Shown in pieces: positions 12,507 through 13,756 of a stretch of DNA of 13,756 nt (position 1 is its first letter; each line of letters opens with the position of its first letter). A model generated the notes under the pieces. It made no database searches, had not been told where the DNA came from, and saw nothing but the letters and a program-made list of their open reading frames with translations. This stretch comes from a virus. Its lineage: Duplodnaviria > Heunggongvirae > Uroviricota > Caudoviricetes. The DNA lies in IMG/VR virus record IMGVR_UViG_2874945390_000001, positions 1 to 13,756 of that record, one strand, 5' to 3'. The translations under genes and the position numbers were made by a program.

Positions 12507-13756
12507 CTACACGGCTCGGATACCCCTTTTACCACTGGCGAGGGTTACGCCCGTCGCCGCAGCCTCGACAAATTCGCCCCACCAGCGCATCAGCACGATG
12601 CGTTTTTCTATGTAGTTGCTCCGGTTGTATGCCCGTCTAACTTCGTTGGTGTCGACGTGGGCAAGTGCCGCCTCTATTACGTCCGGCTCGAATCCTTCCT
12701 CGTTCGCTGCTGTGCTGAATATGGCGCGTAATCCATGAGACACCAGCACGCCAGCGAATCCCATACGCCGCAATGCTGCGTTAGCGGTCTGGCTGTTCAT
12801 CGGCTGCTGTGGGTCTTTCAGACTTGGGAAAACGTAATTGCGGTGGTGGCTGATTGGTTTCATGGCCTCCAGCACCGCCATAGCCTGACCGGAAAGCGGG
12901 ATAACGTGATAACGTGATCCCTGCGCATCTTCATGCGTCCGGCAGGTATCGTCCATTGCTTCGCGTCCAGGTTGATTTCATCCCACCGCGTTGATGACGC
13001 TTCGGCGGGACGGGTTACGGTCAGTAACTGCCATTCAATCAGTAATCTGGTCTGCCGTTCTGTTGCCGATACTGATAAAGCCTGCATAAGCTCCGGCAGC
13101 TGTTCGGGGCGGATTGTTGGCATATGTTTTTTTACAGGTGAGGGAAACGCCTTACGCACATTCATAGCCGGATTGGCATCAATCAGCCCACTGTTGGCGG
13201 CGTAATCCATTACCTCATTAACGCGCTGTAAAACCCGCTTGAGTGTTTCCAGGTTGCCGCGCTCCTTGATGGGTGTAAGCACCTCAACGAACCTTCGGGC
13301 GGTGAGGGTATCTATTGGCGTGTTGCCGATGAACGGGAATACATATTTATCCAGCGAACGCCAGATATCTTTAATCGTGTTGGGGGCCAGATTCTGGCTG
13401 ATTTTCACCTGGTACCATGCCGCCGCCACATTTTCGAACGTGTTCCCTTGTCTTCGGGCCTCTGTCTCTCTTTTTTGCCTCTCGTGGTCCTGCGGGTCAG
13501 TTCCGGCACGAATTAACGCCCTGTACTCGCTACGGCGTTTTCTGGCATCAGCCAGGGAAACATCTTCAAGCGATCCAAAACTCAGCAATATTCTTTTTTT
13601 GTCCGATGGTCGGTAGTAGGAAAATCTCCAGAGTTTTGATCCAGACGGTTTGACCAGGAGAAAAAGCCCTCCGCCGTCCTGCAGGGTGTACTCCTTTTGC
13701 GCTGGTCTGGCTGCTTTGATCTGCACTGTGGTTAATGAGTGTGTTTTTCTCGCCAT
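12507..13756 (-). pseudogene. int: P4-type tyrosine integrase, disrupted by a frameshift (8-bp tandem duplication)
   Basis: N-terminal ORF 12860..13756 has the P4-integrase arm-binding N-terminus (...IKAARPAQKEYTLQDGGGLFLLVKPSGSKLWRFSYY...). The C-terminal catalytic part is in another frame (12507..12956: ...HGLRAIFSTAANE...LAHV...VRRAYNRSNY...). The ATG sits on the last bases of the window, so the true start may lie beyond it. Confidence 0.85.
12901..12916. repeat. 8-bp tandem duplication (ATAACGTG x2) causing the integrase frameshift
   Basis: Sequence is gATAACGTGATAACGTGatcc. Removing one copy restores a continuous ...RMKMRRDHVIPLSGQAMAVLEAMKPI... reading frame. Confidence 0.8.

What the first reader, a model, noticed from the sequence alone, without database searches (positions are those of the whole stretch)
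12860..12956. Integrase inactivated by an 8-bp tandem duplication
ATAACGTG is duplicated at 12901-12916, exactly in the overlap between the two integrase ORFs. Deleting one copy restores a single reading frame across the conserved RMKMRRDHVIPLSG segment. The element is probably locked in the chromosome.
Basis: seen in the sequence. Interest (0 to 1): 0.5.

Follow-up and report, generated by a model that had tools for sequence, protein, structure and literature searches.

The report
Frameshifted integrase in a decayed satellite
An 8-bp tandem duplication really does break the integrase gene of a small phage-satellite island in a Shigella boydii chromosome, but this is ordinary gene decay in an island already crippled by insertion sequences and a damaged attachment site.

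Summary
ATAACGTG is duplicated at 12901-12916, within a period-8 tract at 12900-12918. It splits a minus-strand P4-type tyrosine integrase into ORFs of 298 and 149 aa. Removing one copy gives a 413-aa protein that matches NCBIfam NF007246 end to end and is identical to a deposited S. boydii protein.

It is not an assembly artefact. The window equals GenBank CP026836.1 (S. boydii), and the duplication occurs in five distinct assemblies on two haplotypes. Sister strains with zero substitutions over about 2 kb carry a single copy. None of 5,426 complete E. coli genomes has the duplication.

The frameshift separates R249 and K276 from H338, R341, H364 and Y374.

The host element is a roughly 15-kb EcCICFT073-like PICI satellite at tRNA-Pro (proL). 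It is also damaged elsewhere: IS600 sits in the primase gene, ISSfl3 is inserted, and attR has lost 29 bp including half of the 17-bp core. Close relatives carry independent integrase lesions, a 14-bp deletion and K14*.

Verdict: a real, lineage-specific pseudogene. "Locked in the chromosome" is right but over-determined. This is ordinary Shigella genome decay and of low interest.

The parts
12900..12918 (.). Period-8 tract GATAACGTGATAACGTGAT. This is the 8-bp tandem duplication (ATAACGTG x2 at 12901-12916) plus the 3-bp microhomology GAT (ATC on the coding strand) that flanks it.
   Evidence: It is absent (single copy) in Nissle and in L006, L007 and L008.
12507..13756 (-). Integrase pseudogene (P4/CP4-57-type tyrosine recombinase; 413 aa once repaired).
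   Evidence: The repaired protein hits Pfam Arm-DNA-bind_3 + Phage_int_M + Phage_integrase. It matches NCBIfam NF007246 at 548 bits over 1-413/413.
12860..13756 (-). ORF A: 283 native codons (arm-binding domain, core-binding domain, and the first part of the catalytic domain with R249 and K276), then 15 out-of-frame codons and TGA.
12507..12899 (-). Native-frame 3' part of int (residues 284-413, with H338, R341, H364, Y374). The mechanical ORF B extends to 12956. Gene callers start a 118-aa ORF at 12863, where ATGA overlaps the stop of ORF A.
12181..12408 (-). 76-aa hypothetical gene next to int. Its exact sequence marks the close relatives used for the lesion census.
11825..12031 (-). AlpA-like HTH regulator/excisionase, 68 aa, 100% identical to the Nissle copy.
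   Evidence: PHROG 'excisionase and transcriptional regulator'.
10284..10951 (-). Immunity region RNAs: C4 antisense RNA x2 (10763-10850 and 10284-10371), isrK (10875-10951) and the c4-a1b1 target (10439-10488), with Icd/Ash-like coding remnants.
   Evidence: Rfam matches above gathering score.
9176..9322 (-). Primase gene 5' fragment (codons 1-49), cut off by IS600.
   Evidence: tblastn with the Nissle primase; PHROG primase.
7912..9175 (+). IS600 (1,264 bp, ends TGAGGT...ACCTCA, 3-bp AGG target duplication) inserted in the primase gene.
6304..7911 (-). Primase gene 3' fragment (residues 49-584 of the P4-family primase).
3373..5971 (+). ISSfl3 (IS66 family) copy between ssb and pri. Its own transposase tnpC is split into two ORFs.
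2944..3354 (-). Single-stranded DNA-binding protein gene.
1..2706 (-). Capsid-remodelling module: 68-aa gene (2500-2706), lambda gpE-like major capsid homologue (1445-2500), gpD-like head decoration protein (1098-1445), 137-aa gene (672-1085), 94-aa gene (1-285).
   Evidence: Pfam Phage_cap_E and HDPD; PHROGs.

Best explanation
The window is CP026836.1 (Shigella boydii), positions 117822-131577. It holds most of a roughly 15.2-kb EcCICFT073-like PICI phage satellite integrated at the 3' end of tRNA-Pro(GGG) proL, between yejM/lapC and yejO. Its integrase is a three-domain P4/CP4-57-type tyrosine recombinase. The gene has acquired an 8-bp tandem duplication of ATCACGTT (coding strand) at codons H281-I283. 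The most likely cause is replication slippage between two ATC triplets 8 bp apart in the ancestral ATCACGTTATC (inferred). The resulting frameshift ends translation after 283 native and 15 foreign residues. The product keeps the arm-binding domain, the core-binding domain, Arg-I (R249) and the beta-hairpin Lys (K276). It lacks H338, R341, H364 and the nucleophile Y374, so it cannot cleave or rejoin DNA (inferred from the family's established chemistry). The mutation arose once in one S. boydii sublineage and has been inherited since (shown by haplotypes). The island also carries IS600 in pri, an ISSfl3 insertion, and an attR that has lost the GACCAAA half of the 17-bp core plus 22 bp of flank. 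The frameshift is therefore one step in the neutral decay of an island that is immobile for several reasons, not a regulatory device.
For: The duplication and the restored frame are shown. The repaired protein has the full domain set and an end-to-end NF007246 match. The fragments cover PF00589 profile positions 3-80 and 62-170. An alignment to XerA (4a8e) places R, K, HxxR and H on the two sides of the break.

The window is 100% identical to CP026836.1, which PMC12817139 names as S. boydii. The duplication is present in L002/L034, L003 (SRR6760302), L004 (SRR4180506), L005 (DRR015923) and L039 (GCA_003572455.1). A single copy with 0 mismatches is found in L007 and L008, and with 4 substitutions in L006. 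The exact repaired protein is deposited as HFJ0015292.1. The haplotypes nest as no-dup, then dup, then dup plus a 23-bp deletion and 2 SNPs. None of 5,426 complete E. coli genomes has the duplication junction.

All 10 representative elements sharing the AlpA gene have an intact 413-aa int at yejM-proL. Element identity and other lesions come from the Nissle homologue annotation, synteny, IS600 and ISSfl3, and the att sites. The EcCICFT073 architecture, and the findings that an int knockout abolishes excision and transfer while a pri knockout greatly reduces transfer, come from PMC6092414. Independent int lesions in close relatives (14-bp deletion; K14*) are shown.
Against: There is no experimental or read-level data here, so loss of activity is inferred from sequence. 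The order of events (attR deletion and IS insertions before the int frameshift) is inferred from sharing patterns, not proven. The attR state of the intact-int sister strains was not recovered. IS600 presence in those strains is inferred only from contigs breaking at the IS edge. The catalytic Tyr lies just beyond the XerA alignment and was assigned from the RRAY motif and Pfam coverage to residue 379. An ATGA stop/start overlap at 12860-12863 with a GGAGG just upstream could in principle allow a separate 118-aa C-terminal fragment to be made.
Confidence: 0.9

Rival explanations
1. Sequencing or assembly artefact: the true genome has one ATAACGTG copy.
For: Short tandem indels can be artefacts in a single long-read assembly.
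Against: The same duplication appears in five distinct assemblies, including short-read Logan assemblies of runs from different submitters, and on two different haplotypes. The tract is not a homopolymer.
Confidence: 0.02
2. Programmed recoding: a -1/+2 ribosomal frameshift or transcriptional slippage in the 97-nt overlap makes full-length integrase at a regulated low level, as in IS3-family transposases.
For: The two ORFs overlap by 97 nt in the -1 relationship.
Against: The overlap has no X XXY YYZ slippery heptamer and no homopolymer of 4 or more. The arrangement is derived and confined to one sublineage. Near-identical sisters and all representative relatives encode one 413-aa ORF. Any recoded product would carry extra or altered residues in the beta-strand right after the catalytic Lys.
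Confidence: 0.02
3. Reversible genetic switch: the two-copy repeat is gained and lost by slippage, toggling integrase and island mobility on and off within the population.
For: Tandem duplications flanked by microhomology can revert precisely. Both alleles coexist among near-identical S. boydii sequences.
Against: There are only two copies of an 8-bp unit, so the expected slippage rate is low. The haplotypes fit a single gain followed by further mutations with no reversion. The rest of the island is broken, so switching int on would achieve nothing.
Confidence: 0.03
4. Split or repurposed integrase. Either the 298-aa N-fragment and a re-initiated 118-aa C-fragment reassemble into an active enzyme, or the N-fragment alone is kept as an arm-site and core-site DNA-binding regulator.
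For: ORF A keeps intact arm-binding and core-binding domains. Four GTTATACG arm-type repeats lie 40-85 bp upstream of the int start. ATGA stop/start coupling is preceded by GGAGG.
Against: Residues 284-295 (beta-3 and the start of the next helix) would be missing from both fragments. Relatives inactivate int much earlier (K14*, a 14-bp deletion at nt 306), leaving no such N-fragment, which argues against selection for it. No precedent was checked.
Confidence: 0.03

Closest known systems
EcCICFT073-type phage-inducible chromosomal islands (Gram-negative PICIs; Fillol-Salom et al. 2018, PMC6092414)
   Same: The gene order is the same: int, alpA-like regulator, small genes, P4-family primase, then a lambda gpE-like capsid homologue and a gpD-like head-decoration gene. 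There are no tail or lysis genes. Size is about 11 kb without the ISs. In the prototype an int knockout abolishes excision and transfer, and a pri knockout greatly reduces transfer.
   Different: This copy has a frameshifted int, an IS600-split pri, an ISSfl3 insertion and a truncated attR. It also lacks the TerS gene present in the Nissle homologue. Sequence relatedness to EcCICFT073 itself was not measured, because my attempt to locate it in CFT073 hit a lambdoid prophage instead. Helper-phage induction was not tested.
P4 / CP4-57 (IntA, SlpA) family of tRNA-targeting tyrosine integrases (NCBIfam NF007246; Pfam PF13356 + PF22022 + PF00589)
   Same: It has the three-domain architecture, a length of 413 aa, integration at the 3' end of a tRNA gene with a 17-bp core, arm-type repeats on both arms, and an adjacent AlpA/Vis-like gene.
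   Different: Here the gene is a pseudogene split between the catalytic Lys and the HxxR motif.
IS-driven genome degradation in Shigella (Hawkey et al. 2020, PMC7373316)
   Same: IS600 and ISSfl3 insertions, small deletions and frameshifts accumulate in non-essential genes. Different lineages inactivate the same gene independently.
   Different: Nothing material. This locus is an example of that process acting on a mobile element.
Capsid-forming PICIs (cf-PICI) and P4-like satellites (SatelliteFinder families, PMC10085698)
   Same: It shares the int-alpA-primase left arm. It shares a capsid gene with cf-PICIs. It shares the Icd / C4-type antisense RNA immunity region with P4/P1-type elements.
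   Different: No portal, head-tail connector/adaptor or TerL was found, so it is not a cf-PICI. No sid, psu or delta hits were found among the ORFs scanned, so it is not P4-like in the strict sense.

Membership tests
Tyrosine recombinase, P4/CP4-57 integrase type | Arm-binding (PF13356) + central core-binding (PF22022) + catalytic (PF00589) domains in one polypeptide of about 400-420 aa | tested here: met
Pfam gives three domains with E-values 1.7e-23 to 5.6e-29. NF007246 scores 548 bits against a cutoff of 434, over 1-413/413.
Tyrosine recombinase, P4/CP4-57 integrase type | Catalytic residues R...K...HxxR...H/W...Y all present | tested here: met
   R249, K276, H338, R341 and H364 align to XerA 4a8e, with residue numbers. 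Y374 was assigned from the RRAY motif and from PF00589 coverage to profile position 170/172, not from a residue-level alignment.
Tyrosine recombinase, P4/CP4-57 integrase type | Uninterrupted reading frame (a functional gene) | tested here: not met
   The 8-bp duplication shifts the frame after I283, with a stop 15 codons later. It is a pseudogene of this family.
Tyrosine recombinase, P4/CP4-57 integrase type | Element flanked by a direct repeat of the core (attL and attR) at a tRNA 3' end | tested here: not met
   attL is intact at tRNA-Pro(GGG). attR keeps only CCTCGTGCC of the core CTCTCGTGCCGACCAAA and has lost 29 bp. A perfect attR exists in 11 E. coli genomes. Both att sites lie outside the window.
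Enterobacterial PICI (EcCICFT073-like) | int, alpA-type regulator and pri(-rep) in conserved order | tested here: met
   The order int - 76-aa gene - alpA-like - immunity region - DUF4222 - primase is colinear with the Nissle element. Here, however, int is frameshifted and pri is split by IS600.
Enterobacterial PICI (EcCICFT073-like) | Capsid homologue and head-decoration gene; no tail, lysis, portal or TerL genes; size about 12-15 kb | tested here: met
   Phage_cap_E and HDPD hits. No tail, holin, portal or TerL hits among the ORFs scanned. The element is 15.2 kb including 3.9 kb of IS.
Enterobacterial PICI (EcCICFT073-like) | Helper-phage-induced excision, replication and packaging | not testable with these tools
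   This needs induction and transfer experiments. It is predicted negative for this copy.
Capsid-forming PICI (cf-PICI) | Portal, head-tail adaptor/connector and TerL genes | tested here: not met
   None were found. The only related signal is a weak similarity of the 137-aa protein to the C-terminal part of a head maturation protease PHROG (1e-9).
Programmed -1 frameshift gene | Slippery heptamer in the overlap and conservation of the two-ORF arrangement | tested here: not met
   There is no slippery site or homopolymer. Relatives have a single ORF.

The most novel reading that the evidence does not exclude
The proL satellite may be repeatedly and convergently immobilised rather than merely decaying. 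Three independent integrase knock-outs occur in close relatives: the 8-bp duplication, a 14-bp deletion, and K14*. At least two independent attR deletions (12 bp and 29 bp) both start at the same nucleotide after CTCGTGCC, and 1-2-bp variants at that spot occur in 127 E. coli genomes. Under this reading, either selection favours hosts that keep the island (for example for phage interference through its capsid and decoration genes) but stop it excising, or the attR deletions are scars of abortive Int cleavage that mark the crossover point.
Probability: 0.1. Interest if true: 0.45.

Novelty: already known. Interest (0 to 1): 0.1.

Why it matters
It matters little beyond annotation. This integrase should be labelled a frameshifted pseudogene, and the island a degenerate PICI-type satellite that cannot mobilise. 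That is useful when counting active satellites or predicting island stability in S. boydii. The by-product is more interesting than the finding: recurrent, independent inactivation of the same integrase, and deletions that all begin at the same attR nucleotide. That pattern could be used to locate the crossover site of this integrase family, or to ask whether hosts domesticate satellites by locking them in.

Tried and rejected
I used the XerA 4a8e phmmer alignment instead.

2. A full-length PDB search returned only N-terminal and central domain structures.

3. I guessed the position of EcCICFT073 in CFT073 (1.395-1.445 Mb) and found a lambdoid prophage at icd, not the PICI. Identity to the prototype was therefore not measured.

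4. I looked for slippery sites in the ORF overlap and found none, so recoding was rejected.

5. I first read the 1-2-bp gaps in E. coli attR cores as deletion scars. The census (11 perfect, 32 with 1 bp missing, 95 with 2 bp missing) fits equally well with natural attP polymorphism left of a crossover in GACCAAA, so I do not claim those as lesions. I claim only the 12-bp and 29-bp Shigella deletions, which remove GACCAAA.

6. I considered counting the absence of TerS (present in Nissle) as a lesion. Sister loci show the same gap, so I treat it as lineage variation.

7. I tried to recover the attR state of the intact-int sister strains through the neighbouring genes. Those assemblies were not among the places returned, so the order of the attR deletion and the int duplication remains inferred.

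Large homology searches, structure prediction and collection scans were not run because the answer did not depend on them.

Full report
**Observation**

On the + strand, positions 12900-12918 read GATAACGTGATAACGTGAT. ATAACGTG therefore occurs at 12901-12908 and again at 12909-12916, inside a 19-nt period-8 tract. It is the only perfect 8-bp tandem duplication in the 13,756-bp window. Shuffled sequences give a mean of 0.155 such positions.

The integrase is on the minus strand. The window ends exactly at its ATG (13756). ORF A runs 13756..12860 (298 aa) and ORF B runs 12956..12507 (149 aa). Removing 8 bp gives one 413-aa ORF that reads through ...AGRMKMRRDHVIPLSGQAMAVLEAMK....

**What the gene is**

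The repaired protein has the three domains of P4/CP4-57-type integrases: Arm-DNA-bind_3, Phage_int_M and Phage_integrase. It matches NCBIfam NF007246 from residue 1 to 413 of a 413-position profile, at 548 bits against a cutoff of 434. The two fragments cover PF00589 profile positions 3-80 and 62-170 respectively.

A phmmer alignment of the catalytic domain to the solved XerA recombinase (4a8e) aligns TVTR, the hairpin K of RMKM, HGLR and LAH with the corresponding XerA motifs. In the repaired numbering these are R249, K276, H338, R341 and H364. Y374 was assigned from the RRAY motif. The last native residue of ORF A is I283, followed by 15 foreign residues.

The break therefore falls between the catalytic Lys and the HxxR motif. 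By the established chemistry of tyrosine recombinases, neither product can carry out strand cleavage. This step is inferred.

**Is it real?**

The window is 100% identical to GenBank CP026836.1. A published methods section lists that record as S. boydii (PMC12817139). The window corresponds to record positions 117822-131577.

The duplication junction is present in five distinct assemblies:
- CP026836.1
- Logan assemblies of SRR6760302, SRR4180506 and DRR015923
- GCA_003572455.1

The exact repaired 413-aa protein is deposited as HFJ0015292.1 from S. boydii. Its loci L007 and L008 show zero substitutions relative to the window over about 2 kb. L008 differs only by the 8 bp, and L007 also has a 3-bp indel at 12242.

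The haplotypes nest:
- L006: no duplication, with 23 extra bp at window ~11168
- L003: duplication, same 23 bp present
- window, L004 and L005: duplication, 23 bp deleted, two SNPs

The duplication therefore arose once and has been inherited while further mutations accumulated. That excludes an assembly artefact and gives no sign of reversion.

None of 5,426 complete E. coli genomes has the duplication junction. The closest E. coli copies (Nissle 1917, ATCC 25922; 98.8% identity) have one copy and an intact gene, WP_000101718.1.

**Likely origin of the duplication**

The ancestral coding-strand sequence is ATCACGTTATC, with ATC repeated at a spacing of 8 bp. The derived sequence is ATCACGTT-ATCACGTT-ATC. 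This is the signature of slipped-strand mispairing (read directly from the sequence; the mechanism is inferred).

**Context**

The Nissle homologue is annotated as follows: integrase, HTH regulator, Icd-like genes, DUF4222, P4-family primase, SSB, major capsid, head decoration, small terminase. It lies between tRNA-Pro and narP/yejO.

The window is colinear with the Nissle element except for three blocks. PHROG and Pfam hits agree on the gene content: capsid (Phage_cap_E), head decoration (HDPD), SSB, primase, and an AlpA-like 'excisionase and transcriptional regulator'.

This is the architecture described for the Gram-negative PICI prototype EcCICFT073, which has int, alpA, pri, a capsid homologue (c1499) and a head-decoration protein (c1500). 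In that element, inactivating int abolished excision and transfer, and inactivating pri greatly reduced transfer (PMC6092414). No portal, connector or TerL genes (cf-PICI) and no sid, psu or delta genes (P4) were found.

**Other lesions in this copy**

1. IS600 (7912-9175; 1,264 bp; TGAGGT/ACCTCA ends; AGG target duplication) splits the primase gene at codon 49.
2. An ISSfl3 (IS66-family) copy lies at ~3373-5971, with its own tnpC split.
3. The att sites lie outside the window. Homology to K-12 stops at the tRNA-Pro 3' end and resumes 15.2 kb later. Comparing K-12 attB, attL and the perfect attR of E. coli AL.H8 gives a 17-bp core, CTCTCGTGCCGACCAAA.
4. Arm-type repeats (GTTATACG) are intact on both arms.
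5. The S. boydii attR reads ...AAACTACCCTCGTGCC|TTACGG. It has a T>C change and has lost 29 bp, including GACCAAA and the host-side flank.

Every E. coli attR variant sampled retains GACCAAA, so the S. boydii attR is very probably a defective recombination substrate (inferred).

**Relatives**

All ten representative genomes that share the AlpA-like gene have an intact 413-aa integrase at the same site, including S. boydii Sb227 (CP000036.1).

Among the ten closest relatives, defined by an identical 76-aa neighbouring gene, none has an intact integrase:
- Two carry the 8-bp duplication.
- Five carry a 14-bp deletion at nt 306. One of these has an additional 176-bp deletion, and another has an IS insertion.
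- Three carry a K14* nonsense codon.

The duplication co-occurs with the 29-bp attR deletion plus T>C (2 of 2). The 14-bp deletion co-occurs with a 12-bp attR deletion (3 of 3). The 29-bp deletion also occurs without T>C in four further genomes. It is probably older than the duplication, but this was not proven.

The pattern is what is expected from relaxed selection on an already immobile island, in the IS-rich, pseudogene-rich Shigella background (PMC7373316).

**Rivals**

- Artefact: refuted, as above.
- Programmed frameshifting: there is no slippery heptamer or homopolymer in the overlap, and the split is derived rather than conserved.
- Reversible switch: not excluded in principle, but unsupported by the haplotypes and pointless given the other lesions.
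- Split or repurposed integrase: an ATGA stop/start overlap at 12860-12863, preceded by GGAGG, could allow a 118-aa C-fragment. However, residues 284-295 would be missing from both fragments, and the relatives' much earlier truncations argue against selection for the N-fragment.

**Verdict**

The observation and interpretation are correct. The feature is a genuine, lineage-specific integrase pseudogene in a degenerate PICI-type satellite of S. boydii. 'Locked in the chromosome' is right but over-determined. This is a known kind of event and of low interest.

The only mildly unusual by-product is that independent attR deletions, and the common 1-2-bp attR variants in E. coli (perfect core in 11 genomes, 1 bp missing in 32, 2 bp missing in 95), all begin at the same nucleotide after CTCGTG.

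Noticed in passing
outside the window: about 1.24 kb beyond window position 1 (CP026836.1 attR; L009 about 13640-13740, L014 about 4506). Also L001, L010, L013-L022, L044-L047: attR junctions of this satellite family differ by deletions that all begin right after CTCGTG(CC). Perfect core: 11 complete E. coli genomes. 1 bp missing: 32. 2 bp missing: 95 (including Nissle 1917). 12 bp missing: five loci from relatives of the window genome. 29 bp missing: six loci, including this genome. These may be scars at the crossover point or attP polymorphism; this is unresolved.
   Followed up: partly
L035-L043 (integrase genes of the closest relatives): The same integrase is independently inactivated in close relatives. 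A 14-bp deletion at nt 306 occurs in five genomes (one with an extra 176-bp deletion, one with an IS insertion near nt 476). A K14* nonsense codon occurs in three genomes.
   Followed up: yes
window 10284-10951 (-): The immunity region holds two C4 antisense RNAs (10763-10850 and 10284-10371), isrK (10875-10951) and a c4 a1b1 target (10439-10488). All score above Rfam gathering thresholds. The module, with Icd-like coding remnants, appears duplicated with a period of about 470 bp. The long mechanical ORFs here (225 and 243 aa) probably overlap RNA genes and may not be real.
   Followed up: partly
window about 11168: The window genome lacks 23 bp (TGTGCGCACACATGATTTTAATC) that are present in L003 and L006. 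This is a further small deletion in the immunity region that arose after the integrase duplication.
   Followed up: partly
window 7912-9175 and 3373-5971: IS600 (AGG target duplication) splits the P4-family primase at codon 49. An ISSfl3 copy replaces about 217 bp between ssb and pri, and its own tnpC is broken into 334-aa and 165/207-aa ORFs. No clear right-end inverted repeat was found for ISSfl3.
   Followed up: partly
window 286-671: The Nissle homologue has a small-terminase gene between the 137-aa and 93-aa genes. Here, and in sister loci, there is only a 386-bp gap with no TerS homologue anywhere in the element.
   Followed up: partly
window ends (1 and 13756): The window starts at the stop codon of the 94-aa gene and ends at the integrase ATG. 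The int promoter, the four GTTATACG arm-type repeats, attL, tRNA-Pro(GGG), the distal arm repeats and attR all lie outside it.
   Followed up: yes
window 12860-12863 (-): The TGA stop of ORF A overlaps an in-frame native Met codon (ATGA), preceded by GGAGG. Gene callers therefore annotate a 118-aa C-terminal integrase ORF. This is probably coincidental.
   Followed up: no
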